In this document: piece by piece, positions 13,651 through 60,857 of the stretch
Numbering within the stretch: the first letter of the stretch is position 1
Layout: every line of letters begins with the position of its first letter
Source: the human T2T-CHM13v2.0 reference genome, Homo sapiens
Strand: one strand, 5' to 3'
Assembly: GCF_009914755.1 (NCBI RefSeq)
Contig: NC_060936.1
DNA length: 64,000 nt
Program-made: the position numbers and the translations under genes
Notes under the pieces: generated by a model
Databases searched by the model: none
Told to the model about the DNA's origin: nothing
The model's input: only the letters and a program-made list of their open reading frames with translations

Positions 13651-14420
<770 letters not shown>

Positions 14421-15177: not shown

Positions 15178-15196
15178 CACTGCCCTCTGCTGGTCA
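15178..15196 (-). promoter_or_regulatory. CTCF motif
   Basis: Reverse complement TGACCAGCAGAGGGCAGTG fits the CTCF core CCASYAGRKGGCRS exactly. Confidence 0.6.
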
Positions 15197-15832: not shown

Positions 15833-18375
<2,543 letters not shown>

Positions 18376-19207
18376 GGAAAAACTCAGCCCCAAACATGCC
18401 TTATCTTCCCTCCCTACCTGATTTTTCTCCTAATGCACAGGGCCCCTCACATATGGTATGTCCGGCCTATGTGTCCATTGTTCATCCTGCTTCTTTAAAA
18501 TATAAATTCCAACAGGGTAAGGATTTCATCTGTTTTGTTAACTCACATATGCCCAAAGAGTCTCTGGTACTCGATAAATATTTGTTGAATAAATGAATTA
18601 GATAGGGTGTGGTGATGGAGAGAGTCCCGCCGCCATCCCTGCCCCCATCTCTAATTCTAACGTTCTAACCCGGCTCTTGACCTTGGAGCCGGTTAACGAT
18701 GATCCTGTCTGGGCTCATTTTCCCTCCTTTTCCTGAAGAGCAGCATCCACAGGCCCTCACTCAGCTCAGTCCCTTTTAACCCTTGTCTGCTGAGAGTTTG
18801 AGATAAAGGGGGCCACGAGAGAAGACAATGAATCCATTACAATGTGTGATGAGCTGTCTGCTCTGTGGCTTCCCACAGCAATTTATCATGACCTGGAACC
18901 ACAGCTGTGAGGCCGGGTGTGCCCCCGCCAGGACCTCACTCCCCAGCTGCTTCAGAAGGGAACATTTACAGGAACCTGTCCATACCTATTTAATGAACAG
19001 CTGCTCGGATGCAGCCCTGTCCCAGGCACTCAGCCAAATGACAAATGAACTATATAATCATTCATTCATTCGATGATTCATTCATTCTATGATTGATTGA
19101 TTCATTCATTCATGTGGTTGTCAAACATTCATTGAGCACCTACTATGTGCCAGACACTGTACCTTGCACTGTGGCCCTTAATATCAGAGATGTCAATGTA
19201 TGATAGA

Positions 19208-19730
<523 letters not shown>

Positions 19731-20102
19731 AGACAAGTATATTTTCCTCAAATTATCAGAGAAAAAAATGCTTTTATTTTTGCTGTTTCCTCCTTCTCTC
19801 CCTCTCTCTCTCCCCCTACATACCTACCTACCTGGCTAGTTAAATTGGAAAGCAAAAGCATAATTACAGCTAACATTTGTAAATAGCACATAGTAAGGGG
19901 TCATTTTATCTTGGTTATTCTCGCAACAACTATATGGGCAAAATGCCACCAATGTTCACTTTACAGATGAAGAAATCAAGGCCCAGAGATGCTAAGCAAG
20001 TTGTCCAGGGTCACACCAAGATGAAGGGGCAGAGCTGGGGTTCAAATCCAGGTCCATATGACTCCAGAGCCCGGGTGCCACCAGATTAAGATTAAGATTA
20101 AG

Positions 20103-20367
<265 letters not shown>

Positions 20368-20642
20368 ACTGTGCCACACTCCCTGGCACAGAGCCTCACA
20401 CATTGTAGTGAGCAATAAACATTTATTACCTCAGTGAATGAACACAAGAATGGGGCAAGGATTCTGAGAAAGGCCTGGAGAAGCATAGGCTGCAATTGGA
20501 GGCTTGATGTTCTGGAGGGACGTGTATTATCTTAATTATTTCCATCCATCAGTCCATCCATTCATCGATCCAGCCACTCATTCACCAAGCATTCCCCAAA
20601 CACCTGAGTTGTGTCTGGCACCTAGGAGGAATTCTGGTTTCA

Positions 20643-27480
<6,838 letters not shown>

Positions 27481-29459
27481 TAAGGATTAACGGACACGTG
27501 GGAAGGACTGTTTCAAGCACGCTTCTATTACCAATTACCGGGTAGGGATATGACCCACACTCTGGGTAAATGGTGGCTCACCTACAGATTCTCATTCCAG
27601 CCTGTGAGATGGAGAAAGGGAAGAGTGGGGTGTGCTCTTTATTTTTAAGGTCCTGACCTCTGCATACAAAGTTCCCTCTACTTCCTGACCTGAGTAAGAC
27701 CTGGCTCTTCCCTGACAGTCCTCGAAGCCCTTCCCAGGGGATGGTAGTCCGTCTCCCACCCCCATGGTGTCCTCTATGCTCCACACCTCTATTTCCAGAT
27801 CCATAGTCCTCCATCTTGAGTAAGCACTGAGGCTCCTGACATCTAGCTGTACCACCTTCTGTGCCTTCTCATTGATGATGCCTACTCATCAATCAATCAA
27901 TCAACTGTTATTCTCAGAGGGCTTTGGCAACTGGCTTACCTTTCTCGCCCCAGTTCCTACCGCCATATTGGTGACTTTAATGACCCAGGACCTGGCCGAA
28001 CTCCTGGCCCTTCAGCTCCTGTCCCTTCTTATTCCAATGACCTTCACCTCCACTCTACTTTAGCCACCATCTCCCTGGACCATGTACTGGCCCTCAGTTT
28101 CTCCTGGAACGAATCTTCCTCTAAAGTCTCACATTTCTCTGATCACAGACTTGTACCTTCTGTTCTTTTGATCATTCCAGCTTAGCAGTTCTTCGAACTC
28201 CAGGATCCCTTGGCCCTTCCACTTTCTCCCTCTCAGGACCCTCCTTCCTCCAATTCCTTTCCCATCCAGCCTAGATTCCATGATCTTTGCTATACCCAGT
28301 CATGGATGTTGTGAATGACTCCCCAACATCCATTCCAACCCAGACGGTTGGTCCAAGTTGGTCATGGTCATTCCCTGTCTCTTATCAGGAGAGAAACAGT
28401 CATGTGACTCACTTCTAGTTCTAGAGGGTAGAGTGAGGTGGGGTAAAGAGGACTCTGGGAAAGATTTTCCCATGAAAGAGACAAAAGAACTGATGATCTT
28501 TCCTCCTGAGGATGAACCCAGCAACAAGGGTGGCAGTGCATAGAGACAGGAAGAACCCAGATCTTTGATGATGTTGTCAAACCACTAAATCAACCCCATC
28601 TGAAGTATCTTCCCCCAGGATATCCCAATACATGAAATAATAATTTATTTCATATTTAAGCCAGCTTGAGTCAGGCATTCTGCTACTTTCAGACAAAACA
28701 CCCTAAATAACTTAATTTGCAACTTGCAGCAAAAGCCCAGTCCTGGATCAATGTAAATTTCCTTCCATTCTGTTTTTATACCTGTTCTGCTTAGACTGGT
28801 GGAGAAAACAATAGGTCCTCAGTCCTCCAGAAACCTCAGACGTCTCTCTACCCATCCACCATTAGGAGAGCGTTTCCCCATCCATCTCCAGCCTTTGTTT
28901 AGGGTTGCAGAAGACCTGCGTTGTTATGTGAAGTGGCCAGCTGTCTTGACTAGGAAATAGATATTTTTTAAAGTTCCCAAGGATAGCATGGATATTTGGC
29001 TTGGGTAGAGGGGAACAGAGGGAAGATCTTGAGGTTAAAAGAAATCCAGCATTCATAAGGAGGTAGGGTAGTTATACTCAGATTAAGTTGAATGAACGAA
29101 GTCATTCCCAGTGGCTGAGTTGAGTTAGGGGACAAAGAGAAGCTTCCTGCCCCGTGTTGTGGCCTGGCAGGGGTGCAAGCCCCAGGGGAGGGTGACCTAT
29201 GGGCAGAGCAACTGAATCAGCCTTTTGCTCCTGTATCTTGGACCTGACTAGCTACTGTCCCAGTAACACATGTCAACACCATAACAAACATAGTAGATAC
29301 CAATGATGACACATCTTAAAACTATGTGAACCAGTTGGCAAGTCCTGGTGGTTACTGAGTGTGGAGGTAGGAGGCGGTTCCTATTGGTGGGAAGGCCCAG
29401 GCCTCTACCATAATCTCAGTCACCTAGACTGTTGGCAATAACAAATTCATGGTCTCTAA

Positions 29460-35540
<6,081 letters not shown>

Positions 35541-35594
<54 letters not shown>
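35541..35594 (+). repeat. (GAAA)n microsatellite in an Alu tail, ~2.1 kb upstream of the P2RX7 ATG
   Basis: Directly visible. Confidence 0.95.
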
Positions 35595-35595
<1 letters not shown>

Positions 35596-37079
35596 GAAAG
35601 AAGGAAAGAAAGACAAGAAAATAGATGTCTTTGAGTGGTAGCAAGAGCAACACTGAAGTGATTTGCCTATTCTGGACATTTCCTATAAATGGAGTCGTAA
35701 AAGATGTATCCTTTTGTGTCTGGCCTCTTTCACTTAAGCGTAGTGTTTTCAAGGTTCATCCATGTTGGAGCATGGGTCAGTGTTTCATTCCTTTTTATGG
35801 CTGAATAATATTCCCTTGTATGGACTTTCGTGCTTTTGTGTATCCATCCATCAGCTGATGGACATTTGACTTGTCTGCCTGTTCACTGCCATATCTACTA
35901 TTCCTGGTGCTCTTGGGAATGAGTGAATGAATAGCATAAACAGAGCTGTCCAAGGTCACAGAGCTGGTAAGATGTGAAGCCAGGATCGGAAGCCAGGCCA
36001 TTAGTCCCCTAGAGCCTATGTTCTAAGCATCAGGCTTTACCTGTGAATCTCCTCTTTTTACAGATGAAGATGACTGTATCACTCAGATTCCCGGCAGGAA
36101 AGCAATGGCATACTCAAGTGGGGTAACTAATGATGGAACCATTTACAAAGGTGTGGACAGAGTTAAGAAAAAGCAATAGGAGATAGTGAGCTTCCTGGGG
36201 CTGGTAAGAGTGGGGAGCCCTTACCACTCCCAGGACTAAAGGAGGGAGTGGTGCCCAGAAGCCCTGCCTATATGCAACTGAGAAGGGCAGGGCCAGGGAG
36301 TCACGTCCATCCTCACTGCTCTCCAGTCTCCTGAACTGGAAGCCAGAAGGTGAGGGGAACCCTGATGCAGTTTGTATGTGTGAGAAAGTACAATTAGTTT
36401 AGACTGAAAAACTGAAAATCTACCCGGCCACTTAGCAGGCTGGAATAACAGAAATGGATCAAGCCAGCTGTAAAGATAACAGGGAACAATAATTCTCTGT
36501 AGCTGTAAAGTGATAATACAACCCTGCATCTTTGAGTGACTGCTGAAACATTGTCCTTTAAAATCAGAGACCTTCAGAAACTTCGCTGTTTGAAATTACA
36601 TGACTAAGACTGAAATATTCCAATTTTGCCTGGAAGATTTAAGTCATCTTGACACAGAGAAGCAGCCTCAATTTACAACTCAGGAGCAGAGCTTCAGATA
36701 AAGATTTTCTGGACACATTTGACATGTATCTTAGCTATGTTGCTTCCTAGGAAACAGGGCCCTGGGTCCTCTTTGCAATCCAGACTGAAGTTGACTGCTT
36801 TGTACAAACCTGTTTTGCTTTGAGTCCATCAAAACATGACTTCATTTAGATTTTATCTCAACTCCACTTTCCTCGGAATCCTATACTAAATTGCTGTTTT
36901 CCTTTGTTTGGTGATGTGCGTAGCTCTTCTGGTGGGTGGTGTCCCTCACTGAATAGGTCAACAAACCTAACTTTGTTGGACTGCCACTGTGTCCCTGGTG
37001 ATCTTTGGCTGATTGGTCTAGGTCATAGATCGACCTGCCGGGGTGCAGAGGAGGGTGGAGAGTAACTCAGAGGGTCAAG

Positions 37080-37723
37080 CATGAAAGATCTGGCAGAAAA
37101 ATAAAGCCCCTCCACCCCCACCACCCCTACCCCTGCAAATCTGATTTCCCCCACCAACTGCAGACCAGAGTATTATAAGGGGCGGTGGAAGAAGAGGGGG
37201 AGATCTTCATTTACCCAGAGCTCCTATACATCAGGGGCTGAATAAAGGGTTGTAGAAATGAATGAATCAATCTCTGAGTGGGGCTTCAGGCAGTGGAAAG
37301 ATCTCAGTCCTTTTCTGAGGCATAATGGAAGCTCCCAGTCTTGTGACATTTGCAAGGCTGCCCCTTTCTCCCAAGAGACATGAGACCAAAAAAGTGAAAG
37401 GAAAGGGGGGAAAAGGGAGAATTCTGAAAATGCCCATCCTCTGAACACCATCTTTGTGTAGGCATCTGGGGGAGGCCAGCTGGGGTGAGGTCATCTGCCA
37501 GCCAGGCCCGTAGGACTTGGCGCTTCTTGTTTATCACAGCCACATGTGGGGCCACTGCCAGGGCCCGCCCCAACTCTGCAGTCATTGGAGGAGCTTGAAG
37601 TTAAAGACTCCTGCTAAAAACCAGTACGTTTCATTTTGCAGTTACTGGGAGGGGGCTTGCTGTGGCCCTGTCAGGAAGAGTAGAGCTCTGGTCCAGCTCC
37701 GCGCAGGGAGGGAGGCTGTCACC
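37080..37723 (+). promoter_or_regulatory. P2RX7: P2RX7 proximal promoter and 5'UTR
   Basis: Repeat-poor sequence upstream of the ATG. GC box CCCGCCCC 37564-37571; Inr-like TCATTTT with A at 37633 (91 nt before the ATG); IRF-E-like AAAAGTGAAAG at ~37390-37400; TATAAG followed by GGGGCGG at 37174-37185. Confidence 0.75.
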
Positions 37724-37848
37724 ATGCCGGCCTGCTGCAGCTGCAGTGATGTTTTCCAGTATGAGACGAACAAAGTCACTCGGATCCAGAGCATGAATTA
37801 TGGCACCATTAAGTGGTTCTTCCACGTGATCATCTTTTCCTACGTTTG
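37724..37848 (+). CDS. P2RX7: P2X purinoceptor 7, coding exon 1 (aa 1-42; N-terminus and most of TM1)
   Basis: accATG at 37724 encodes MPACCSCSDVFQYETNKVTRIQSMNYGTIKWFFHVIIFSYV, the recognised human P2X7 N-terminus. Donor TG|gtaagt at 37848/37849; 125 nt, phase 2. Confidence 0.99.
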
Positions 37849-38309
37849 GTAAGTGGGATCTGGGGAGGACCCAGATCTCTGCAGTGGCCGACAGCACAGA
37901 AAGCCCCAGCGGGCAGCTTCAGGTGCACATTCTGAATCTCACATGGTTTTCGAATCTGAGACGTGCTCTCACAGCCAGCTGGGCGGGAGGGAGGAAGCAG
38001 CAGCAGGCAAGAGGAAACGGTGCCAGGCTGCAGCAGAGAGAAGCCACAGGACAAGCGGGATTCCTTTCTGCTCTACTTCAGGCCCGCCAGGGCGCGCAGG
38101 GCAGGGCGTGCCTGGGGAAGGTAGGAAAGCGCAGGGCAACACCCTGGATCCCCAGGGAGGAGGCGAGGATCTCAGGGCACGCCTGGTGATCATGCTGGCA
38201 TCTGAGTCACCATGCTTGGGAGGAATAGGACCAGGCTTGAAAATGTGTTATAACTTTAGGTCCTCACCAACGTCAGGAAGGCCCTGCTTTTTGGTTTTTG
38301 TTTCTTCTA

Positions 38310-39586
<1,277 letters not shown>

Positions 39587-40436
39587 TAGAGTGGCAGTGT
39601 AGTTTACTAAGAGTTAGGGTAACTTATTTCATAGTACTGGCTATGTCTTCTGGGCCAAGTCATTAACTTCTCTGAGCCTCAGTTTCTGCATCTGTTCATA
39701 GGGTTGTGGCAATTAACCAAAAAAAAAAGGCATGAACAGCCCTTATCATGATGACTGACATAGGATAAGAGCTCCATAACTAGTATCTATTTTTAAAAAT
39801 AATCTTTTTAAGTCTGGGAGTGGTGGCTCACACCTGTAATCCCAACACTTTGGGAGGCCGAGGCGGGTGGATCACGAAGTCAGGAGTTTGAGACCAGCCT
39901 GGCCAATATGGTGAAACCCCATCTCTACTAAAAATACAAAAATTAGTGGGGAGTGGTGGTGCACACCTGTAATCCCAGCTACTAGGGAGGCTGAGGCAGG
40001 AGAATCGCTTGAACCCGGAGGCGGAGGTTGCAGTGAGCCGAGATCAAGCCACTGCACTCCAGCCTGGGTGACAGAGCAAGACTCCATCTCAAAATAATAA
40101 TAATAGTAATAATTTTTTTGATTATATAATAGTATATATGTATATAAAATACATGTATGTATTTTTATCTATATCCTCTGCTCTGACCCTCAAAGTAACC
40201 ACGTCCAAGTTCAGGATTTGAAATCTGGAAACGTGGATTCAAAAATCCTTCACCTCTTTGAGCCTTGGTTTCATCATCTGTAAAATGGGGAGAATTGTTG
40301 ATAGGAATATTAAATGAACTAATAAATGCAAAGCTGTTTGAGAAATATATGGCATATAGTAATCCCTGATTAAGTGTTAGTTCTTATTATTAATAATGCT
40401 ATTATTAGGATTATTATTATTCGATTCATATGTTTA

Positions 40437-40863
<427 letters not shown>

Positions 40864-41259
40864 TTATATATTTATATTTTTTATATATTTATATATATTT
40901 ATATGTATTTTATATATTTATATATATGTGCTGAAATCTAAAATAAGACATATCACTTAAACCAGCTATCACAGGACCAATGGTAAAGAGCATAATTAGT
41001 AAATGCCCCCTTCTGCATTAATACGTAGATTGTATGTCACAATTTCATGTAGCAGGTGATGGGGCTTCCTGACATTCTTGGGCCCAGCATACAATCTTTT
41101 TATTTCTTTTTTAGAGACAGGGTCTCATTGTGTTGCCCTAGGCTGGAGTGCAGTGTCATTATCACAGCTCGCCACAGCCTCAACTTCTCAGGCTCAAGTG
41201 ATCCTCCCGCCTCATCCTCCCAAGTAGCTGGGACCATAGGCACACGCCATGATGTCTGA

Positions 41260-41442
<183 letters not shown>

Positions 41443-41469
41443 TGAGTTGAGTCTCACTCTGTCACCTAG

Positions 41470-41626
<157 letters not shown>

Positions 41627-43738
41627 TAGTTGTCCAGGCTGGTCTTGAACTCCTGAGCTCAAGCAATCCACCCGCCTTGGCCTCCCAAAGTGCTGGGATT
41701 ACAGGTGTGGGTCACCATGCCCAGCCTTCAATTTCTTCAGATTATTGTATAATAATAAAATTTCTAAAAACAGATTACTATGAGAACACCTTGTAATGAT
41801 AAATATTTTTCTTTCACATGGTGAAATCATAACTTACATGTATTTAACTCCCTCAAATTCAGTTATACATGTTCCATGGGGACATGGAGAGAGAGAGAAC
41901 AATATAAATAATGCAATGATTCAGCAACCGGGTTCGCTGGAGTAGGTGTGAGATGGGATACTGGCATCTGGTGTTCCCTCCGTCAATCTCTGTTCCCACG
42001 TGCTTTTTAGCGAGCATCTTGCTGCTCTACTTATTAATCTAGGTACATATTTTTCAGCCACATGACCCCTAAAATAAGTCAACTCCTTCACCTTCACCTG
42101 GAGCAAAACTGTAAAAACAGCAACTTGTTCTAGATCTGGAGGCAAAATTGGTTCCAGCAGACCCACTGGGAAGTGGGAGGTGTTTGCTATGCTTTGTGGA
42201 CAATTTAAGTGTTTAAAAGGCAATTTTGATGAGCCATGATTTTCATCTTAAGTGCCAACTTTAGAAGATAACCTTCATATAAAAGTTTCTCTACAGTTTG
42301 TATTTTAAAATATAAAATGGAAGAAAAAACTATCACCAGCTTTGCTTTTTTCCTCTTGGTTAATGGACTATCTATTAACGTCTCACTAAATGGCCAAATG
42401 GAGTCTCACAGTACACAGTTTGGGAAATGCTGCCTTAAGTTGCTCTGTGAAGCCTTAAGTTCGTGTAACCATGACTTAGCCATCTGTGAAATGGGTAGAC
42501 CCATGGGGCATAGGAATTGGGGAATGTATTTTGCATCAAGTAGGACTGGTGTGGACCACAGGTGGAAATCCAGACAGGCTCGAGCAATGTTCAGGATACA
42601 GCAGCAAGTGACAGGTTCTGGCCAGCTGTCCCTACTGGGGCTGCAAGGACTAAGAGCCAGGATAAGGAGACAGGGCCTCGGTTATTGAAAATGGGATACA
42701 AAGCAGGGACTGGTTATGGCGGAAATTAACCAAGAGGCTGTTCAGCTTCTTCTATTCTCACAACCAATTCAGATCTGGATTCAAAGGCAGGGATGCAGCT
42801 ACAAGAGGAGTTTGTGTTGGAGGTCTGTGTAGATAGGATGCTAAGCAGGTCTGTGTCAGCCAGGATCGTTTGGGCAGTAAGTGACAGAAACCCAACTTAC
42901 GTTAACCACAAAGCCTCAAAGGGGAATTTATTGGATCATGTAACTGGCCAGTTGAAGAGATGGTGCTGTCCTCGGACGTGGATGAAGATAAGAGTTCAAA
43001 CTGTGTCATCAGGACGGATCCGTCTCCCTACATCCTGGCTCCATTTGCTTCTATTTGGCTTCCTTCTTGAACAACTCTGTATGTACAAGATATCCTCACA
43101 TTCTCTTCTTTTAACAACCTCAGAGGAGCAAACAAGTCTTTCCTGATAGCTCTGCTAAGAAAGTCCCAGGAAAGACTCTGATTGATCAGATGTGAGTTAC
43201 AGATCCATCCCTGAACCAATCACTGTGGCCAGGGCCAAGGTGTCATCCCATTGGCCAGCCTGGGTCATGTGCTGGCTCCCGTAGCAGGAAGTAGGGAGAA
43301 GACGAGGGAGCCGTGTGAGCCCTACGTGAACCACATCCAGTGGATTTTCCTTAGGAAGGAAGATTCTGTGACCAGACCAAATGGAAAAGGAAGTGGGGAG
43401 GGTAGGCAGACAAAAATCGGTGATCTATTACAAGGTCTTTCCAAAAGCCAGAAATTAGGGATTTCTAAGTGTACCTCTCTAGTCCTGGCTTGTCTCAGCC
43501 CTGCAGCTGGGCTGTGGAGACTCCATCAGCAATTGCTGACCCCCTATTCTTACCTCGGCCCCTTCCTGAGTCCCACCAGGAGCCCTGCTCCTCATCTGGG
43601 ACATGCTTCTTGGCCCATGGAGGTTGACAGCTCACCTTGGTACTTTACTACTATTTGGTTTCTGTGACCACCAAGCTGTTGCTTAAACCAAGCCGCCTAT
43701 GGTGGCACCACTTTGGAGAATTCTTTTTTATTTTTTGA

Positions 43739-44335
<597 letters not shown>

Positions 44336-47300
44336 TAAAATGGAGCTCCTGGCTGGACACCTGTTTCCCAGTGGGTGGCCACAAACCTGTGAGTCTGGGC
44401 CTCCTCCAGCTGAGTAGAAGTGAGCCCAGCACAGAGGCCGGGGAGGCCCCAGACGCCAGGAGGAGCAAATCCAAATCCAACCCAAGCATGGCCCCTCTGA
44501 CCCTGACCATCTTTTTTTTTTTTTTTTTTTTGAGACAGAGTCTCCCTCTGTCACCCAGACTGGAGTGCAGTGGCACGATCTTGGCTCATTGCAACCCCCA
44601 CCTCCTGGGTTCATGCGATTCTCCTGCCTCAGCCTCCCTAGTAGGGACTACAGGCATGCACCACTACACCCAGATAATGTCTGTATTTTTAGTAGAGATG
44701 GGGTTCTGCTATGTTGGCTAGGCTGGTCTCGAACTCCTGGCCTCAAGCGATCCGTCCGTCTTGGCTTCCCAAAATGCTGAGATTACAGGTGTGAGCCACT
44801 GCGCCCAGCCTGCCCCTGACTGTCTTCAGAAAAGTAGAAGCAGGAGGTCTGCCACATTCTCATCCCACCCTTGACACCTGGGTGATGTGCTAGAGCTTGA
44901 GGGGAAGGTCAGAGGTAACCCAGTTCGGGAAGTGACCCCGTAGGAGGAGAAGAATCCAGCCATGTGACACACAGTACGAAGAGAACAGTAAATGCAAAGA
45001 CCTGGAAACAAGAGGAACAGCAAGGACAGCATGTCCCAGAACCTGGGGAGAGAGGAGGGAGCAGCCGGAGCTGAGGGCAGCTCAGGGGAAGAGTTGCTAT
45101 TTGATTTTCAGTGCATGGGAAGCCACTGAAAAGTTTTATGCAGAGAAGTAAAACCATCTCACTCATGTTTCTAGAAGCCTTATGGGCCACTGTGCAGAGC
45201 ATAGAGTGTGGTGGGACAAGAATGACGGTGAGGAACCAGTGAGAAGGTTCCTGGAGTCACCAGATGCGAGGAGATAGAGGCTTGGGCTAGAATGGGCTGG
45301 CGGAGCTGGAGAGAGGTGGACAAAGCTGAGATGTGTTTTGGAGGCAGAAATGATAGATTTGCTAGGAGGTGAAAGATGGCTCTAGATTCCTGAGGAACGA
45401 TGATGCCTTTTACCAACCTGAAGAAGACCAAGGAGAGGCTTGAGGACTAACACGGAACTGTGAAGGAGGCCAGGCAAAGGTGGAGACTGCCGTGAGCTGT
45501 GATCACGCCACTGCACCCTCGCCTGGGTGACAGACTGAGAACCTGTCTTAAAATATATATGTAATAAAAAATAATAAATAAAGGGCCAGGCGTGGTGGCT
45601 CAACGCCTGTAATCCCAACACTGGGAGGCTGAAGCAGGTGGATCACCTGAGGTCAGAAGTTCAAGACCAGCCTGGTCAACATGGCGAAATCCCATCTCTA
45701 CTAAAAATACAAAAATTAGCCAGACATGGTGGCACATGCCTGTAATCCCAGCTACTTGGGAGGCTGAGGCAGGAGAATCACTTGAACCTGGGAGGCAGAG
45801 GTTGCAGTGAGCCTAAATCACACCACTGCACTCCAGCCTGGGCAACAGAGTGAGACCCCATAAATAAATAAATAAATACATAAATAAAGGATATCAGGCA
45901 AGCAATTAAAACACCTGCCTACTACCATCTATCCGCATCCTTTTTTTCATGTCTAACACCAAAACACCAAAATAGCTGGAAACATATCATGTCAAAAGAT
46001 AAGCATGATTCTTTCAAATGAATGGCTGTGGACTTATGAAAAGCTGCCTCCGCATCTGATTTTCTTGTTTCAAGGGGTAATGATGGAGGTTTCTCTCCTG
46101 CACCTGCAGGCCTCCGGGGATGCTGCCCCAGTGCAGCCTCCCACCCTGGGCTGGAGCCTCCCAGCCCCGCTGCATGGGTAGCACAGTGTTGGGAAGAGGA
46201 AGGAGCAGTTTGTCTGGCTTTTTCACAGGCCCACAGCTGGCCGGTACAGTGGCAGAGAAGGCGAGGCTGAGGTGGGGCTGGGGAAGCCAGCAGGGGCCTG
46301 ATCATGGAGCGCCTTGAGCTGCATCCCACAGGTACTGAGAAAGCATGGAGAGCTGTCCCCCAGCCCCCAGCATCTTATTAGAAAATATTGAAACATAACA
46401 GAAAACATGAAGGGTTTTATGTTCATATTTTCATTTTAGAGAGATCATTCTGCTTGAAATATAACACCTACTGAGTACTGCTGAGGACTTAGCATGTGCC
46501 GGGTTCTGTTCTTAGCATGTGACATGTATTGGCCTATTTGATTCTCCTACATAATCCTGGAAGATTGGTTGTGGGAGTGGGTGATCATGACCTGAACAGC
46601 CTAACCATGTTTAGGGAACACTCTGTGTTATGCGTTCCACCACACAATCCATGTCACAGCTGAATGTCCCAGTTTCCCTTGCAGCTAGGACACAACAGGA
46701 GACCCAAGCTTTCCAAACATATGCCCCAGGCAACACTTTGATACACAAGGAATAACACTGGATGCTGGGTGTGCACAGAATTCAAATTCAGGAATGGAGG
46801 GAAGTACTGCCCTTTGACCCATACAATAGGGGATCCCCTTCCTTGGACCCCATGGCTTAGAGGGCCCCACTCTGTCCCTCTGCAGACTGTGAGCTGCCCT
46901 ATGGAATGAGGGGTGTCTGAGGCTGTATTAGTTTCTATTTGTTACACAGCAGTGGAAACTAATACAGTCCCACAGGCCTAAATCAAGGCGTCAGCAGGCT
47001 GAGTTCCTGCCTGGAGACTCTGGGGAAAATTCACTTCCAAACTCATTTTTGTTGTTGGCAAAATTCAATCCCTTGAGGCTGCAGGACTGGGCTCTGCTCC
47101 TCACTGGCTGTCAGCCTGGGGCCACTCTCAGATTCTGAAGTCCTCCCACATTCCCTGCCACATGGTCCTCTCCATCTCCAAGCCTGCTATGACACAACGC
47201 ATTGTTCTCATGCTTCAAATCTCTGACTTCTCTCCCGGGACCAGAAGAAGAATACTCTCTTCTTTTAAGGGGCTCATGTGATTGGGTCAGGTCAACTCTA

Positions 47301-47949
47301 TCATATCATGGAGTCTCACCGTCTTGCCCAGGTGGGTCTTGAACACCTGGGCTCAAGTGATCCTCCTGCGTTGGCCTCCCAAAGTGCTGGGATTACAGGC
47401 GGGAACTGCTGTGCCCAGCCAAGGCCAGCATCTTCAGACTTCTCTGCCCTGTTTTCACATGGTCTTCTCCTCTTTGTGTGTGTGTCAAATCTCCTTCTGC
47501 CTCTCTTATAAGGACGCGTGTAATAGCACTCAGGGCCCACCTGGATGACACAGGGTCATCTCGCCATCTCAAAATCGTTAACTTTGGCCAGGTGCAGTGG
47601 CTCATGCCTGTAATCTCAGCACTTTGGGAGGCTGAGACAGGTGGATCACTTGAGGTCAGGAGTTCAAGACCAGCCTGGCCAGCATGGTGAAACCCTGTCT
47701 CTACTAAAAATACAAAAGTTAGCTGGGCGCGCACCTGTAGTCCCAGCTACTCAGGAGACTGAGGCAAAAGAATCTCTAGAACCTGGGAGGCAGAGACTGC
47801 AGTGAGCCAAGATTATGCCACTGCACTTCCAGCCTGGGGGACAGAGTGAGACTTCATCTCAAAAAAAAAAAAAAGATGACTGGGCACGGTGGCTCACATC
47901 TGTAATCCCAGCATTTGGGAGGCCCAGGTGGGCAGATCACCTGGGTTCA

Positions 47950-48719
<770 letters not shown>

Positions 48720-48916
48720 TTAGTAAATTTCCCAAGTTGTGCAACCATCATCACAATCCAGTTTCAGAACATTTCATCAGCCCAGTAAGAGCCCTCACAC
48801 CCATTAACAGTCACTCCCCACTCCCACTTCCTCCTGGTGGTTGCTCAACCCAGGTAACCATGAATCTATTCTCTGCCTCTGGAGATTTGTCTTTTCTGGA
48901 CAATCTTTCTTCTTAA

Positions 48917-49277
<361 letters not shown>

Positions 49278-50232
49278 TAATATCCTCTTATTACAAAAGA
49301 AGAAACAATGACTCAGAAAGATTAAGTCACTTACCCAAGGTCATGTAGTCAGTAAGCAATAGAGCTGAGACTGAACCTCACTCCAAAGTCTATGCTCTCA
49401 CTAAAGTATTGCAGTGTAGAGAGTAGAGGGGACAGGGTGAGACTGGAGGAAGGGAGGGCATTTAGGAGACTATTGGGATGTCCAGATCTGAGAGCTGTTG
49501 GCGACCTGGACTGGGGAGGTGATAGAGGCAGAGGAGAGAAGTAGATGAATTTGAGCATATTAGGAAGTGAAACAGTAGGATTTGGCAACTGAACGGGTGA
49601 GTGGACAAGAAGGAGAGGATGAGTCAAAGAGTGCACCATGCTTCTGGCTTGGGCAACTGATGGGTACTGGAATAACTTGCTGGGATAGGAAATGCAGGAG
49701 AAACAGCCAATTTGGGGTGGAAGATGAGGTCAGGACTAAAGGCATTGAGTTTGAGGTGTCTATGGAATGTACAAATGGAGATGTTGAATGGATGGTTGGA
49801 TATACGAATCTGCAGCTGAGATGTAGGTTTCTATATCACCAGCATATAGACGGCAACCAGAACCCTGGAAGAAGGTGCAACCGACCAGCAAGAGAAGATG
49901 TAGATGAGAAAGCAAAAGGGCCTAGAACACGCCCCAAAGGAGTGCTAACCTTTAAGGCGTGGGAGCGCAGAAGTCCCCAAAAGATTCTGAGGAGTAGCCA
50001 CGGCGATCCAGTGAAAGTCAGGCACAAGTGGACTCCTGCAAGCTAAGGGAAGGAGGCGAGGGAAGTGGGGCATGGTCACAGTCAGTGTCAACTGCTGCTG
50101 AGAGTTCCAGGAAGGTCAGGTCCATGGTGTATCTATTGGATTTAGTGACAACGACATTGTTGTTTACTTGGCAAGAGAGGCTTTAGAGAAGGGATGGGGG
50201 TGGGAGCCAGACTAGAGTGGGTAGAGGAGTGA

Positions 50233-50565
<333 letters not shown>

Positions 50566-51063
50566 TGAGCCACCGTACCCGGCCTGGTGACTCACTCTTT
50601 CAAGGGACTCAGCTATAAAGAAGAGAGGCATGGAGTGGTGGTAGGATGGATTAAGCTGGGGAGGGGAGGCATTTTTAAGATGAGAAATGATGTTTAAATG
50701 CAGATGGAAATGGGACAGGAGAGAAACGGAAGTTGATGGGATAAATGAAAATTATCATCATCATCTTCCTCACCATCACCAGCAGCAACCACAAGGAAAG
50801 CTCGTTCTGCTCTGGGACTGCCCTGTTAGACATTTCTTCCTTATACTGAGCCACAATCTATCTCCCTGTAACTTTCGCCTTTGGTTAGAGTTCTGCCTTG
50901 TGTCCCTCTTCTACTCTTCAAATGGCTGCACGCTGCTACTATGTCTGTCCTCTTCTTCAAACTCACAGCCCCCATCCTACGGGCCCTGTGCTCCCAGCCT
51001 GGTGACCCGACCCTCTACTGTCCCAGCCAAGTTCACATGACCATCCTCTTATTTGTCAAGCCT

Positions 51064-51095
<32 letters not shown>

Positions 51096-51604
51096 GAGGA
51101 GTCTTACTCTGTCCCAGGCTGGAGGGCATGGCACAATCTCAGCTCACTGCAACCTCTGCCTCCTGGTTTCAAGTGATTCTCCTGCCTCAGCCTCCTGAAT
51201 GCTGGGATTACAGGCATACATCGCCATGCCTGGTTAATTTTTGTATTTTTAGTAGAGACGGGGTTTCACCATGTTGGCCAGGCTGGTCTTGAACTCCTGA
51301 CCTCCAGTGATCCCCCTGCCTCAGCTTCCCAAAGTGCTGGGATTACAGCGTGAGCCACTGAGCCGGGCCAAGCCCCTCTGAAGAGGCAGTGTGCACACTC
51401 TTGCTTTGCTGATAGAAGCATGAAATGGTTCAAGTTTTTGTGATTTGGGAAAATGAACTCAGCTATAAAATGTGCACACCCAGAAGTTGTCCTATGGACT
51501 TAATGTCTTAGGGGTGAGAAGAAGCTTGTGCAGGGATTCCTGGCAACATGAATGCGGGATGGACAGACAGTGAGCACAGTGTTGAGGAGCACAGCCTGAG
51601 TGCA

Positions 51605-51945
51605 TCTCCCTGAGATCAGGAACAGGACAAGGATGCCCGCTTTCACCGCTGCTGTTCGACATTGTACTGGAAGTTCTAGCCAGAGCAATTAGGCAAGAAA
51701 AAGCAATAAAAGGCATCCAGATTGTAAAGGATGAAGTAAAACTATCTTTAGTCACAGGTGGCACAATCCCATATAGGGAGAATCCCAAAGAATTCACAAG
51801 AAAACTGTTAGAGCAAATAAACTAATTCAGTCAAGTTGCAAGGAACAAGATCAACCACAAAAATTAATTGTGTGGGTTTTTTTTACACCAGCAATGAACA
51901 TTTGAAAAGGAAATTCGAAAAAGTATTCCATTCACTGTAGCATTT
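51605..51945 (+). mobile_element. Isolated L1 ORF2 RT-domain fragment
   Basis: ggaacaggacaaggatgcccgctttcacc..ctggaagttctagccagagcaattaggcaagaaaaag (GTRQGCP-type region). Confidence 0.9.
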
Positions 51946-52315
51946 AAGAAAGCTGAGGCTGTGAAGCTACATGGCTGTGTTTGGAGCTGGTGCTGCTATT
52001 TACCATGTGACCTTGGACAAGCTTCTCACTTCATTCATGACACCGTTTATTCAGCTATTAAGTGGGGGTAATAATAGTACCTTCCTTATAGAGTTGGTTT
52101 TTTGTTTTTGTTTTTGTTTTTGGTGGGGGAGAGTAAGGATTGCAAGAGTTAATATATGTTAGCAAAATGGACTTAGAAGAGTGGTTGGCACATGGTAAGG
52201 ACTATATTAGGGTTACCAAAAAATGTTTATAATTGGGAAAATTGAACAAAGGTTCCAGTAAATATCCATCCCAGAGGCTGGTTGACAAATTATCACAATG
52301 TACCTTTTAGCTTGA

Positions 52316-52672
<357 letters not shown>

Positions 52673-52837
52673 TGAGCCACCGAGCCCAGCCAAAATGGGC
52701 CGTTTCATATGTTCAATTTAAACACTAAGATACTCTTTAGCCACTGAAAATGACTGTGTATCATAGATCTATCTTTATCACAGATCTATCTTTACTGTCA
52801 TAGAAAGAACTAATAACATATTATTGAACAAAAATAA

Positions 52838-53320
<483 letters not shown>

Positions 53321-53855
53321 TAACCCTTGATTTTTACCCTGTTTGACTGACTTTAGGAGTCTGACCCCCAAAACTGCAAAAGAATAAATTAGTGTTGTTG
53401 AAAGCCACTAAGTTTGTGGTAATTTGTTAGAGCAACAACCAGAAACTAATACAATCGGGATTAAACTTGCCCTGGGGGTGCTGGCTCTCCCCCACTTTCT
53501 TCTCAGAGCATCTCTTGGGTCCTCGCCCCTTGCTGAGCCCCCACCATGGCCGGGTGGACCAGCGATGGACCTGATCGGATTCTCCTCTTGGGATTTTAAA
53601 TAAGAGATGCAGAGGCTGCACGCCAAGCTTCTCTGTGCCGCACTGCAGGCACAGTCCTGGCGCTACTGTTCTTTAGGGGTCCATGAAGATGTTTGTTGGC
53701 CTGGCTTAGGTGTGAGCTAAGAGATACAAGGGATACACTTTGGAGGCTCAGCCCTTTGATGTTACCTTTGCGCTGGAAGCCCAGGGGCTGTAAGACGGAG
53801 AGGAACTTTGCTGAAAGGGAGGTCCTCCCTGCAGAGCTTGAAGAGCAATCTAACC

Positions 53856-53980
53856 ATGCTGGCATGGGGCCCATCCCACCTGTGATGCCAGTGTAAGTCT
53901 GTGACAGTCACTCATATTCAGAGCATGTGGATTGAGACTCTGAAGAACGACTTTATGGTGGGCACCTTCATCTCCATCTG
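53856..53980 (+). pseudogene. Decayed duplicate of P2RX7 exon 1 (probable P2X7k-type alternative exon 1') in intron 1
   Basis: accATG to TG|gtgggt is exactly 125 nt. Translates MLAWGPSHL*CQCKSVTVTHIQSMWIETLKNDFMVGTFISI, 14/41 identical to exon 1 without gaps. In-frame TGA at 53883-53885. Confidence 0.85.
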
Positions 53981-54100
53981 GTGGGTCCAGAGCAAGCAGC
54001 CTCAGGGTCCCATGGGCCCAACCTCACCCTCCATCCTTATTTCCCTGCCACTCCAGGGCTCCTCCTCAGCCAGACTTGCCTGTGAGTGCCCCTTGATGGC

Positions 54101-54462
54101 TGTATTAGTCTGTTCTCACGCTGCTAATAAAGACATACCCAAGACCAGGTAATTTATAAAGGAAAGAGGTTTAATGGGCCCACAGTTCCACATGGCTGGG
54201 AAGGCCTCACAATCATGGCAGAGGGCGAAAGGCATGTCTTACATGGTGGCAGGCAAAAAGTGAATGACAACCAAGCAAAAGAAGAAACCTCTTATAAAAC
54301 CATCAGATCCCATGAGACTTACTCACTATCACGAGAACAGTATGGGGGAAACTGCCCCCATGATTCAATTATCTCCCACCAGGTCCCTCCCACAACACAT
54401 GGAAATTATGGGAGCTATAATTCAAGATGAAATTTGGATGGGGACACAGCCAAACCATATCA
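54101..54462 (-). mobile_element. Solo MaLR LTR (THE1/MST family)
   Basis: tgtattagtctgttctcacgctgct...gggacacagccaaaccatatca; 5-bp TSD atggc/gtggc. Confidence 0.92.
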
Positions 54463-55395
54463 GTGGCCCTGGCTTCTCTCCCATTAGCTCTGTTCTACTT
54501 CCCAAAATCTTTCCAGCTTTGTTCTTTTTTAGAGACTGGAGTCTCACTGTGTTGCCCAGGCTTGTCTTGAACTCCTGGGCTCAAGGGATCCTCCTACCTC
54601 GGTCTAACAAGTAGCTGCGAATATAGGTGCACACCACCACACCCCCACAACTTACCCATCCTCCCCGGCTCAGTGAAATCCCTAGGTCCTTCACACTCCC
54701 GTTAGCTCCAGGTACCAGCGGCTTTGCCTTCTACAGAATGCATAACATTATAGCCTCTTAGAGCAAAAAGGTCATGGGGATGGGGAAGGCTGGGAGTTCT
54801 CTCTTCATTCAGGGATTAAACCTACCACCTGGAGGGGTGACATGGCTCACCTTAGTCACCAAGCAAGGTCGGGAGAGTATTTCTGGGATGGTCATTAGCA
54901 CTTTCTTTCCAAAGGGAGGATACTACAAACTCACTTTCATGATCACAGTATCCCCCCCGACAGGTAAAGTGTGCAAACTCGCTTTCATTCCCTTTTTGTC
55001 TTTGACGCAGCTCTGAAGCATTTTAATTCTTAAAATTTACATGTTCATGATGACACAGAGACAGGTTTTCTGTTTAGGAGAGGGCCTGATTCCATTAAGG
55101 CTGATCGATCATATGTTGCACATTCTGGGATAAATATGAGAGATCAGAATTGAGCTTCCCAAATGGTGGGTCACATGACCCAGTGTTGTTCCAGGAGAAC
55201 GTTGCAACATCCAGCATGAGAAAGCGCTGCATGCACCATGTATGTGTTGGGATGCTGGGCTGAAATGTATTAATGAGCAAGTGTTATCATATTTGTCTAT
55301 GGAATTCTATTTAATAGCTATGTCTCGTATGTGCTGATTGGGTCTCAAATCTGGGTATCTTACCCCAACATCTTTCTTGAAAATCCTTCTTTTTA

Positions 55396-59080
<3,685 letters not shown>

Positions 59081-59563
59081 AAGAGAGAGAGAGAGAGTAG
59101 CTGCCATTTTCAATGTTATTGATAAAGCAGGTGGGTGTTTCTGAAAATGCACCAGATGCAGCCTTAGACTGGAAGGTGCTGATGTGTTACTGAGCCTCCA
59201 GACAAAGCTGGCGAACCCACCGGGGCGAGACTTTATGACTTGAGAAGCTGTCCTATCTATGAGGGTCCATGTTAGGGAATATTAAAGAATAGGATTGGGG
59301 GCAGTAGCTTTCCTGTAGCAAGTGCTAGCTATGTGCCAGATACTGGGCAAAGGAGTCTGCAGACGTCTCTCATTTCATCCTCACAATCCATGAGGCAGGT
59401 ATGACTATTCTTCCCATTATCCAGAGAGGGAAAACAAGTCACACGGAAGCAAGTCACGCAGCAGAGCTAGGATTGGAACAGAAGTGCCTGCATCCTCCAA
59501 CGCCTGCATCCCAACCCGCTGTGCTATGCCTCCCGTTGATGCTTTCCCATGTCTGCCATTTAG

Positions 59564-59732
59564 CTTTGCTCTGGTGAGTGACAAGCTGTACCAGCGGAAA
59601 GAGCCTGTCATCAGTTCTGTGCACACCAAGGTGAAGGGGATAGCAGAGGTGAAAGAGGAGATCGTGGAGAATGGAGTGAAGAAGTTGGTGCACAGTGTCT
59701 TTGACACCGCAGACTACACCTTCCCTTTGCAG
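59564..59732 (+). CDS. P2RX7: P2X7 exon 2 (aa 42-98)
   Basis: Acceptor ccatttag|C; encodes (C)FALVSDKLYQRKEPVISSVHTKVKGIAEVKEEIVENGVKKLVHSVFDTADYTFPLQ. Donor CAG|gtgagc; phase matches exon 1. Includes ATP-binding K64/K66 and Val at residue 76. Confidence 0.99.
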
Positions 59733-60857
59733 GTGAGCACCTCGTAGCATTCTCCCAGGCTCGTCGCTGGTCACCGTCGCCAGGGCCTAGCTCCCTTCCC
59801 CTAGGATCTACAGCCTCACTCCAGAAAAAACGCTGGTCCTATTTTAAAAGCTCTGTGAACATCCCAACTGAGAAAACCTAAAAATTGCAAAACTGGGTGA
59901 GATCCAGGAGATGATTCTTTGCTTTATCAAGTCCTACAGGGTTTCTCAAAATAGCCTCATGTCCTGGTGCATTGAAAACAGGATTTGATTCACTCGCGCT
60001 TGATTTACCCGCAGCTTTTTAGACGCACAGCCACCAAGCCAGCAAGGTCTGCCGAGATTCAGAAGGACAGAGAACTTTCTACCAAAGAGCACCAGCCCTT
60101 CTAGATTGTGTAGCATTTCATCAACAAAAATGACTCCAGGAGACCATTCTTGGGTACATTTTTCCACAAAGAAAGGATGTAAATGACAAAAAGAAGAAAG
60201 GCATCGGTCACTGAGAGAAGGCGTGTGACTTCTAGATTTGCAAGCAGGGAAAATGAAAGCAGAATTGCCAAAAAAGAGAAATTAAAGTAGGGTTGAGGAG
60301 TCCAAAAAACAGATAAGGGGGCGAGAGGGACAAAGGGGCACGTTTGCGGCTTGGGGAGCTAAAATGCTTTGCAAAGACCCATGAAGCCCAAGCTGCTGTT
60401 TGTTTCTAACAGTGGGTCATTAAAATCCTGTGATTGCTCAGGTGGTGGGATGCCCTAGTGCCCTTTCATTAAAGTCTGGGAAAATCTGAACAGTGTTGTG
60501 ATGAAGGCTGCTCCCCTACCCTCGCCTCCCCAGGTCTCCTGAGTTTCAATTTAATGAGATTTTTACTGCGTAAAAAAAAAACAAAAACAAAAACAAAAAC
60601 ATGAAAAGGCTGCTTTTGAGACTGCATTGGTAAATGACTCTTCAACCCATTCAAACGCTCCTTCACTCTCCCTCAGCTCAGCAGGGCTGCTCGTCCAGCT
60701 TTGATATTAAGCCCTTGGCATATTCCAAGTTGCCCACAGATCCTGATTTCTAGAAGCTTAGAAAAGTGGAGAGGTTCGCCCAGCAAGCTGGATTATTATA
60801 ATTAAGTAGTTCTCTTTTCAAAGGCCTTGCATTTTCTTAGCCTCTCCTTCTCCACAG

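What the first reader, a model, noticed from the sequence alone, without database searches (positions are those of the whole stretch)
53856..53986. Hidden paralog of P2RX7 exon 1 in intron 1: probable human relic of the P2X7k alternative N-terminus/TM1 exon
Seen in sequence: accATG at 53856 to TG|gtgggt at 53980 is 125 nt, the same length, start context and phase-2 donor as coding exon 1. Gap-free alignment of MLAWGPSHL*CQCKSVTVTHIQSMWIETLKNDFMVGTFISI with MPACCSCSDVFQYETNKVTRIQSMNYGTIKWFFHVIIFSYV gives 14/41 identities, including VTxIQSM, T28, K30, F33, V35 and F38. The DNA cores are AGTCACTCATATTCAGAGCATG and AGTCACTCGGATCCAGAGCATG. Splicing to exon 2 would restore the TGC Cys42 codon in frame. 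The only clear lesion is TGA at codon 10; Y13 of the P2X YxTxK motif reads TGT. Established: rat and mouse have an alternative exon 1' in intron 1 that gives P2X7k, with a different N-terminus/TM1, higher agonist sensitivity, T-cell enrichment and gating by ARTC2 ADP-ribosylation. As I recall, its sequence has VLHIHS..LKNFF (compare VTHIQS..LKNDF here) and a human equivalent is generally regarded as absent. Inference: P2X7k arose by exon 1 duplication before the primate-rodent split and decayed in the human lineage, possibly in parallel with pseudogenisation of human ART2.
Basis: partly seen in the sequence, partly recalled or inferred. Interest (0 to 1): 0.92.

Follow-up and report, generated by a model that had tools for sequence, protein, structure and literature searches.

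The report
Dead human P2X7k first exon
A short stretch inside the first intron of the human P2RX7 gene is the broken counterpart of the alternative first exon that gives rodents their extra-sensitive P2X7k receptor, which helps explain why that isoform has not been found in people.

Summary

- **Match to exon 1.** Window 53856-53980 matches P2RX7 coding exon 1 without gaps at 68 of 125 bases. The next best of 127,752 positions has 54 (z 7.4). ATG and splice donor are in the same register.
- **Orthology test.** The alternative N-terminus of a rodent P2X7 protein (red squirrel, P0034; 39 residues, as published for P2X7k) hits only 53784-53978 (tblastn E 3.6e-12, next best E 1.2). The relic matches it at 22/38 residues, against 14/37 for canonical exon 1.
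- **Origin.** The exon is closest to P2RX7's own exon 1 among the seven human P2X genes.
- **Decay.** It has an in-frame TGA at codon 10, has lost a conserved Tyr and has extra acidic residues in TM1. None of 13 RefSeq transcripts uses it.
- **Older duplicate.** A ~46-kb primate duplication in the C12orf76 locus keeps the frame open, with CAA where the relic has TGA. That points to an ancestral CGA.
- **Novelty.** Limited. A 2019 review says the 2009 discovery paper, which I could not read, already predicted a possible human alternative exon.

The parts
53856..53980 (+). Relic of alternative first exon 1' (k-type), coding-equivalent part: 41 codons plus TG, with one in-frame stop
   Evidence: Gap-free 68/125 to the exon 1 CDS. 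Squirrel k-type 39-residue peptide hits 53886-53978 at 18/31 identical, E 3.2e-7. 22/38 identical overall.
53784..53855 (+). Upstream part of the relic exon (5' leader), still alignable to the N-terminal extension of the squirrel protein model. An acceptor-like AG lies at 53783-53784.
   Evidence: The tblastn alignment of the 65-residue squirrel N-terminus starts at 53784. In the paralogous copy, a RefSeq lncRNA exon begins at the equivalent base.
53856..53858 (+). ATG in the same accATGc context as exon 1
53883..53885 (+). In-frame TGA (codon 10). The paralogous copy has CAA here.
   Evidence: TG versus CA at the same two bases is the pattern expected from decay of one ancestral CpG on opposite strands (inference).
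53892..53894 (+). Codon 13 TGT (Cys), where a-type exon 1 and the squirrel k-type have the conserved Tyr of the N-terminal Y-x-T/S-x-K/R motif. The copy has GGT.
   Evidence: Pfam aligns the squirrel Tyr with profile position 3, as for Y13 of the a-type.
53981..53986 (+). Donor gtgggt in phase 2. It is weaker than gtaagt of exon 1 and gtgagt of the paralogous copy.
37724..37848 (+). P2RX7 coding exon 1, the parent paralog of the relic
   Evidence: Annotation
59564..59732 (+). P2RX7 exon 2, the exon to which a k-type first exon would splice. Its first base C completes the split Cys codon.
   Evidence: Annotation. In the squirrel protein the k-type N-terminus is joined directly to the exon 2 sequence.
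13700..59747 (.). Segment duplicated, inverted, to chr12:110026679-110077874 (C12orf76 / LOC105369976 region). It contains the upstream region, promoter, exon 1, intron 1 with the relic, and exon 2.
   Evidence: Identity is 89.7% in unique sequence.

Best explanation
Window 53784-53986 is the human ortholog of the alternative first exon (exon 1') that in rodents yields P2X7k, a P2X7 subunit with a different cytosolic N-terminus and most of TM1.

The exon arose by tandem duplication of P2RX7's own exon 1, before primates and rodents diverged. It kept the same start context, length class and splice phase, so either first exon could be joined to exon 2.

In the human reference it is a dead coding exon:
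- an in-frame TGA at codon 10;
- loss of the conserved N-terminal Tyr;
- two added acidic residues in the TM1 part;
- a weakened donor;
- no annotated transcript that uses it.

The stop most likely arose by a CpG transition (CGA to TGA). This happened after a ~46-kb primate duplication copied the region to the C12orf76 locus. The Tyr was probably lost before that duplication.

Shown here: the paralogy, the orthology to one rodent k-type N-terminus, the lesions and the duplication.
Inferred: the order of events, the loss of function and the equivalence of the squirrel exon with mouse/rat exon 1'.
For: **Paralogy with exon 1**
- 68/125 gap-free identity; the next best of 127,752 positions is 54.
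- Same ATG context, length and phase.

**Orthology**
- The squirrel P0034 N-terminus hits only 53784-53978 (E 3.6e-12; next best E 1.2). It also hits the paralogous copy (E 1.4e-13).
- Relic against squirrel k: 22/38 identical, z 11.6, 0 of 2000 shuffles as good. Relic against a-type: 14/37, z 3.9.
- The squirrel alternative N-terminus is 39 residues from its internal Met. This is the length published for P2X7k.

**Origin within P2RX7**
- k-type, relic and copy match P2RX7 exon 1 at 11-14 of 30 residues, against <=6 of 30 for each of the six other P2X genes.

**Decay**
- Stop at codon 10.
- Tyr replaced; G27E specific to the relic lineage; 3 charged residues in the TM1-equivalent 17 residues against 1 in squirrel k and in the a-type; mean hydropathy 0.65 against 1.35.
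- 0 of 13 RefSeq P2RX7 transcripts have an exon in intron 1, and no regulatory feature is annotated at the site.

**Frame open earlier**
- The copy has an uninterrupted ATG-to-donor frame, with CAA at codon 10.

**Literature**
- P2X7k has been identified only in rodents.
Against: - No protein-level search recognises the relic as P2X on its own: PDB and Pfam.
- The only mouse exon 1' sequence I could obtain, a published 19-nt primer, has no significant placement in the window. Identity with mouse/rat exon 1' therefore rests on the squirrel protein.
- That protein is a predicted UniProt entry with an aberrant C-terminal part.
- Since the duplication the relic has diverged from its copy exactly as unique intron does: 12/125 mismatches, and 39% of 213 intron windows have <=12. 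So there is no sign of recent constraint. The test is weak, because genuine exons 1 and 2 show only 91.0% and 91.7% identity.
- Polarisation with the squirrel resolved only 4 of 10 non-synonymous differences: 1 on the relic lineage and 3 on the copy lineage.
- I have no transcript data, so absence of use rests on annotation only.
- I saw one human genome only, so I cannot say the TGA is fixed.
Confidence: 0.85

Rival explanations
1. The relic is dead as coding sequence but still used as RNA. It could be an alternative transcription start or a cassette ('poison') exon in some human cells. Such use would yield non-productive P2RX7 transcripts or transcripts translated from a downstream start.
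For: - In the paralogous copy the equivalent stretch is a RefSeq lncRNA exon (NR_148514.2, NR_148515.2). Its acceptor lies 71 nt upstream of the ATG and its donor 37 nt into the frame.
- The window keeps the same AG at 53783-53784 and a gtaagt at 53893-53898.
- The 72 nt upstream of the ATG are still alignable to the squirrel model.
Against: - 0 of 13 RefSeq P2RX7 transcripts contain an exon in intron 1.
- No CAGE, promoter or enhancer feature is annotated within 5 kb.
- The copy's lncRNA donor reads AAG|gtaagt, where the window reads AGT|gtaagt.
Confidence: 0.1
2. The exon is still a working coding first exon in at least some humans. Either the TGA is an allele of this one genome, or translation starts at the internal Met (codon 24).
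For: - The stop sits at a former CpG, the most mutable kind of site (inference).
- The ATG context, frame length, phase and GT donor are all intact.
Against: - There are further lesions besides the stop: the conserved Tyr is lost in both human copies, Glu and Asp sit in the TM1 part, and the donor is weaker.
- Reviews state that no human equivalent has been identified.
- No transcript is annotated.
Confidence: 0.04
3. The resemblance to exon 1 is chance, or the segment is a recent primate-specific copy of exon 1 unrelated to rodent exon 1'.
For: Local BLAST scores against exon 1 are only marginal (E 0.07 and 0.32). Profile and PDB searches are blank.
Against: - The gap-free scan puts it 14 identities above every other position in the window.
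- The squirrel k-type N-terminus hits it at E 3.6e-12.
- It is far closer to the squirrel k-type than to any a-type exon 1.
Confidence: 0.01

Closest known systems
Rodent P2rx7 exon 1' (P2X7k isoform; Nicke et al. 2009, known to me here only through reviews and later papers)
   Same: It lies in intron 1 on the sense strand. It encodes an alternative N-terminus plus most of TM1 and is in phase to join exon 2. It is 58% identical in residues to a rodent (squirrel) k-type N-terminus of the published length, 39 residues.
   Different: The human version has 42 codon positions (three extra near the N-terminus), an in-frame stop, no conserved Tyr, extra acidic residues in TM1 and no known transcript.
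P2RX7 canonical exon 1 (a-type)
   Same: Same start context, 125-nt coding length, phase-2 donor and 54% gap-free nucleotide identity. Both share a P2X7-specific length that is two residues shorter than other P2X exon 1s.
   Different: Only 14/41 residues are identical. The relic is not recognised by the Pfam P2X model and is interrupted by a stop.
Mutually exclusive alternative first exons born by tandem exon duplication, with later loss of one copy in a lineage (unitary pseudo-exon)
   Same: Two homologous first exons lie in series, each with its own ATG and the same phase. One is retained in rodents and decayed in humans.
   Different: Whether the human copy ever had its own promoter, and when it stopped being used, is not shown here.
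Partial P2RX7 duplicate in the C12orf76 locus (chr12:110.03-110.08 Mb)
   Same: It carries copies of exon 1, the exon 1' relic and exon 2 at about 90% identity. Its exon 1' copy has no indels relative to the relic.
   Different: The copy's exon 1' frame is open and its donor is consensus-like. Its exon 1 has lost the ATG and three bases. Part of it serves as exons of non-coding C12orf76 transcripts.

Membership tests
P2X7k-type alternative first exon (exon 1') | Located in P2RX7 intron 1, sense strand, upstream of exon 2 | tested here: met
   53856-53980 lies between exon 1 (ends 37848) and exon 2 (starts 59564), on the + strand (annotation).
P2X7k-type alternative first exon (exon 1') | Sequence homology to a rodent k-type N-terminus | tested here: met
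   Squirrel P0034 N-terminus: a unique tblastn hit at E 3.6e-12 and 22/38 identical with z 11.6. The one published mouse 19-nt primer was uninformative.
P2X7k-type alternative first exon (exon 1') | Own ATG and splice phase that joins exon 2 in frame | tested here: met
   ATG at 53856 and TG|gt at 53980/1. Exon 2 starts with C, giving Cys.
P2X7k-type alternative first exon (exon 1') | Uninterrupted reading frame of about 39 codons | tested here: not met
   TGA at codon 10. There are 42 codon positions against 39 in rodents.
P2X7k-type alternative first exon (exon 1') | Transcribed and spliced to exon 2 (T-cell enriched in mouse) | not testable with these tools
   No RNA data were available. 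0 of 13 RefSeq transcripts use it.
P2X7k-type alternative first exon (exon 1') | Gives a channel with higher agonist sensitivity and gating by ADP-ribosylation | not testable with these tools
   Known for mouse and rat from the papers seen. It would need expression and electrophysiology.
P2X receptor N-terminus/TM1 (Pfam PF00864, first ~30 positions) | Recognised by the family profile | tested here: not met
   The relic and copy peptides give no hit at E<=10. True exon 1 gives E 1.2e-5. In the full squirrel protein the profile does extend through the k-type N-terminus from its Tyr.
P2X receptor N-terminus/TM1 (Pfam PF00864, first ~30 positions) | Conserved Tyr of the N-terminal Y-x-T/S-x-K/R motif (motif name recalled) | tested here: not met
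   The relic has Cys and the copy has Gly. Squirrel k and all seven human P2X exon 1s have Tyr.
Tandem exon duplicate of P2RX7 exon 1 | Closest relative is P2RX7's own exon 1, with the same length class and phase | tested here: met
   11-14 of 30 residues match P2RX7, against <=6 of 30 for each of six other P2X genes. There is a 125-nt gap-free register.

The most novel reading that the evidence does not exclude
The stop may not be universal. It sits at a decayed CpG, and the frame was most likely still open when the region was duplicated in an early anthropoid. Some living primates, or even some human haplotypes, could therefore still carry an uninterrupted exon 1' and make a P2X7k-like subunit. 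In the remaining people, the relic could still act as an alternative start or cassette exon that diverts P2RX7 transcription in T cells.
Probability: 0.08. Interest if true: 0.8.

Novelty: new member of a known kind. Interest (0 to 1): 0.45.

Why it matters
Mouse T cells die within an hour at micromolar NAD+ or 100-300 uM ATP, largely because they express P2X7k. Human T cells do not, and reviews attribute part of this difference to the lack of a human P2X7k.

Showing that humans carry the orthologous exon in a disabled state gives that species difference a concrete genomic basis. This matters whenever mouse P2X7 results, knock-outs or antagonists are carried over to people.

It also yields simple tests:
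- dating the lesions across primates;
- checking whether the stop is fixed in human populations;
- looking for residual transcription from the relic.

The accompanying duplication shows that long C12orf76 transcripts start from a copied P2RX7 promoter. That could confuse expression or mapping analyses of the 5' end of P2RX7.

Tried and rejected
**Local alignment against exon 1.** BLAST was only marginal. I replaced it with a full gap-free scan.

**Protein-level recognition of the relic.** PDB phmmer, Pfam and NCBIfam all gave no P2X hit.

**Published mouse primers.**
- The a-type primers map well: 19/21 at 37823 and 20/20 at the end of exon 2.
- The mouse exon 2 'k reverse' primer fails to map even to genuine human exon 2.
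- The exon 1' primer has no significant placement.
- Every paper I opened that gave an exon 1' primer gives the same one.

**Rodent genomes.** None is reachable. The control genomes of the genome search gave 0 hits for the P2X family.

**Protein database route.**
- 24 hits, all read; none was k-type.
- 22 hits. Of its four new ids I read none after this search and one, P0028, never. P0025-P0027 I also left unread. They cover the a-type query fully.
- 205 hits at E<=1e-10 among 226 candidates, of which the best 120 were listed. I read 10 of those 120 (P0029-P0038), the mammalian P2X7 entries I had not yet seen. One was k-type.
- 85 hits were not listed.
- 31, 25 and 291 candidates without a named source were left out by the tool.
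- Full-length (592-residue) proteins were never within reach. Clustering at 90% would in any case hide k isoforms behind a isoforms.

**Literature.**
- Nicke et al. 2009 is not held.
- Two 'P2X7k' text matches were really 'P2X7 KO'.
- Searches for C12orf76 with P2RX7 (1 paper, listing only) and for P2X7 with 'alternative exon 1' and primates (1 paper, a review already read) found nothing on a human relic or on the duplication.
They may hold exon 1' alignments or further primers.

**Constraint test against the paralogous copy.** Uninformative because of low power.

**Rejected readings.** Chance resemblance; a recent primate-only duplicate of exon 1; origin from P2RX4 or another P2X gene.

Full report
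**1. The observation**

The letters are as described.
- accATG lies at 53856, and an in-frame TGA is codon 10 (53883-53885).
- TGT stands where exon 1 has the Tyr codon.
- The donor TG|gtgggt falls at 53980/53981. The coding-equivalent length is 125 nt, as for exon 1 at 37724-37848.
- Exon 2 begins with C at 59564, so the split codon would read Cys, as in the canonical protein.

**2. Is it more than chance?**

Local BLAST is unimpressive. blastn finds only the 22-nt core (E 0.07, though it is the best non-self hit in the window), and tblastn gives E 0.32.

The claim, however, is a full-length, in-register match, so I scored every position of both strands without gaps.
- The segment has 68 of 125 identities at exactly 53856.
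- The next best of 127,752 positions has 54 (mean 31.4, sd 4.96, z 7.4).
- Identity is spread evenly over codon positions: 25/42, 21/42 and 22/41.

At the peptide level the signal is weak.
- The gap-free BLOSUM62 score of 22 ranks third among non-self positions.
- No P2X chain is retrieved from the PDB at E<=10.
- There is no Pfam P2X hit, whereas true exon 1 scores E 1.2e-5.
- A shuffle test gives z 3.9, with 1 of 2000 shuffles as good.

So the paralogy with exon 1 rests mainly on DNA.

**3. The orthology test**

No rodent genome is reachable here, and the discovery paper is not held.

Papers give one mouse exon 1' primer of 19 nt. It does not place significantly in the window. The test has little power, since one mouse exon 2 primer also fails on genuine human exon 2.

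I therefore looked for k-type N-termini among database proteins, stepping up in length through three searches. Among the 10 mammalian P2X7 entries I read from the third search (120 were listed, of 205 hits), one has a non-canonical N-terminus joined directly to the exon 2 sequence. This is red squirrel P0034, UniProt A0A8D2B3U8. From its internal Met the N-terminus is 39 residues long, the length published for P2X7k.

- tblastn of the 65 residues before exon 2 finds one significant place in the 64-kb window: 53784-53978, E 3.6e-12, 33/65 identical, with one 3-residue gap. The next best hit has E 1.2.
- The 39 residues alone give E 3.2e-7.
- The relic matches squirrel k at 22/38 (z 11.6, 0 of 2000 shuffles as good), against 14/37 for human exon 1.

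The squirrel entry is a predicted protein. Its equivalence with mouse/rat exon 1' is inferred from position, length and type, not from sequence.

**4. Origin**

- The squirrel k-type N-terminus itself resembles a-type exon 1 (11/38, z 5.0, 1 of 2000 shuffles as good).
- Pfam's P2X model runs through it from its Tyr at profile position 3, colinear with Y13 of the a-type.
- Over the 30 residues before the splice site, squirrel k, the relic and its human copy match P2RX7 exon 1 at 11, 12 and 14 residues. None matches any of the six other human P2X genes at more than 6.

The exon is therefore a duplicate of P2RX7's own exon 1, made after P2X7 diverged from the other P2X genes and before primates and rodents split.

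**5. State in the human reference**

Besides the stop:
- The conserved Tyr is Cys.
- Gly27 has become Glu. The copy and the squirrel both have Gly.
- Position 32 is Asp, where the squirrel has Val.
- The TM1-equivalent 17 residues hold 3 charged residues, against 1 in squirrel k and 1 in the a-type. Mean hydropathy is 0.65 against 1.35.

The donor is gtgggt, against gtaagt in exon 1 and gtgagt in the copy. None of 13 RefSeq P2RX7 transcripts has an exon inside intron 1. The nearest annotated regulatory feature is an enhancer at 48626-48775.

**6. An internal comparator**

A search of the same genome found a second copy of the segment 11 Mb away. Following it up shows an inverted duplication of about 46 kb.
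- Window ~13.7 kb to 59747 corresponds to chr12:110026679-110077874.
- It runs from upstream of P2RX7 through the promoter, exon 1 and intron 1, and ends 15 nt past exon 2.
- Identity in unique sequence is 89.7% over 12,318 aligned bases.
- From recalled figures for primate neutral divergence, that level suggests an age near the split of Old and New World monkeys.
- A squirrel monkey database protein carrying copy-like changes fits this date. I did not verify its locus.

In the copy, exon 1 is dead: ATG has become GTG, and three bases are deleted. The exon 1' copy, by contrast, has an uninterrupted frame from ATG to a gtgagt donor. It has no indels and 12 substitutions relative to the relic.

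At codon 10 the relic has TGA and the copy has CAA. These differ as TG versus CA at the same two bases, which is the pattern left by one ancestral CpG decaying on opposite strands. The most economical ancestor is CGA, so the frame was probably open at the time of the duplication. With a recalled roughly tenfold CpG transition bias, I put this at about 9 to 1.

At codon 13 the states are TGT, GGT and Tyr in the outgroups. Parsimony favours loss of the Tyr before the duplication.

Since the duplication the relic has diverged like unique intron: 12/125 mismatches, and 39% of 213 intron windows have <=12. This gives no sign of constraint. The test is weak, because real exons 1 and 2 score only 91.0% and 91.7%.

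**7. Literature and novelty**

From passages only:
[quoted passage not shown] - Absence of an analogous human T-cell variant (PMC4436801).
- A 2012 paper asks whether humans can make such an isoform (PMC3407210).
[quoted passage not shown] 2009.

So a candidate human sequence was apparently noticed in 2009, in a paper I could not read.

In the papers and listings I could see, I did not find any of the following:
- the stop and its CpG origin;
- the other lesions;
- the quantitative link to a rodent k-type sequence;
- the P2RX7-specific origin of the exon;
- the C12orf76 duplication.

**8. Verdict**

This is a real feature, correctly read by the first stage. It is the decayed human ortholog of the P2X7k first exon.
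- Confidence is 0.85 for the whole statement and higher for the homology alone.
- It is a new member of a known kind rather than a new kind of thing, and it was probably anticipated in part. I score interest at 0.45.
- The boldest reading left open is that the stop is not universal among primates or people, or that the relic is still used as RNA. I give that 0.08.

Noticed in passing
window ~13700-59747; chr12:110026679-110077874 (loci L003, L004, L007, L009-L011): There is an inverted intrachromosomal duplication of about 46 kb, roughly 90% identical in unique sequence. It copies the P2RX7 upstream region, promoter, exon 1, intron 1 and exon 2 into the C12orf76 / LOC105369976 region. It ends 15 nt after exon 2. 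One listing-only search found no paper linking the two genes as paralogs.
   Followed up: yes
chr12:110049121-110049334 (L004) versus window 37629-37848: The first exon of the non-coding C12orf76 transcripts NR_148514.2 and NR_148515.2 is the copy of P2RX7 exon 1. It has the same start site within about 3 nt and the same donor. These transcripts therefore appear to be driven by a duplicated P2RX7 promoter. The copied ATG is GTG, and one codon is deleted.
   Followed up: yes
chr12:110032886-110032993 (L002:1669-1776, minus strand); window equivalents 53785-53892: An internal exon of those C12orf76 transcripts is built from the copy of the exon 1' region. It comprises 71 nt upstream of the ATG plus the first 37 nt of the frame. 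Its donor AAG|gtaagt reads AGT|gtaagt in the window.
   Followed up: yes
proteins P0022, P0023, P0024, P0013, P0014, P0017, P0021, P0004: Short 'P2X7-like', 'hCG2015786' and uncharacterised proteins of human, gorilla, orangutan, four Old World monkeys and a squirrel monkey look like conceptual translations of the duplicated exon 1 and exon 2 copies, not of P2RX7 itself. I did not check the monkey loci.
   Followed up: partly
whole genome: The Pfam P2X model finds the exon 1 of six human P2X genes at E<=0.01 when the genome is searched exon by exon. It does not find P2RX7 exon 1. P2X7 therefore has the most divergent first exon of the family, and it is two residues shorter before the splice site.
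   Followed up: partly
window 54095-54468: An interspersed repeat of about 365 nt starts 114 nt downstream of the relic's donor. Dozens of copies genome-wide are 85-89% identical. It looks LTR-like, by recall only. It is present in both duplicates, so it was inserted before the duplication. I did not fetch or align its copies.
   Followed up: no
window 15585-24378 (LOC105370030) versus chr12:110058402-110078151 (LOC105369976): Two uncharacterised lncRNA genes lie at corresponding places in the two copies of the duplication, in matching orientation. They may be paralogs.
   Followed up: no
proteins P0037, P0038 (opossum): The opossum P2X7 entries have a strongly divergent N-terminus and TM1. 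By eye it looks a-type rather than k-type.
   Followed up: no
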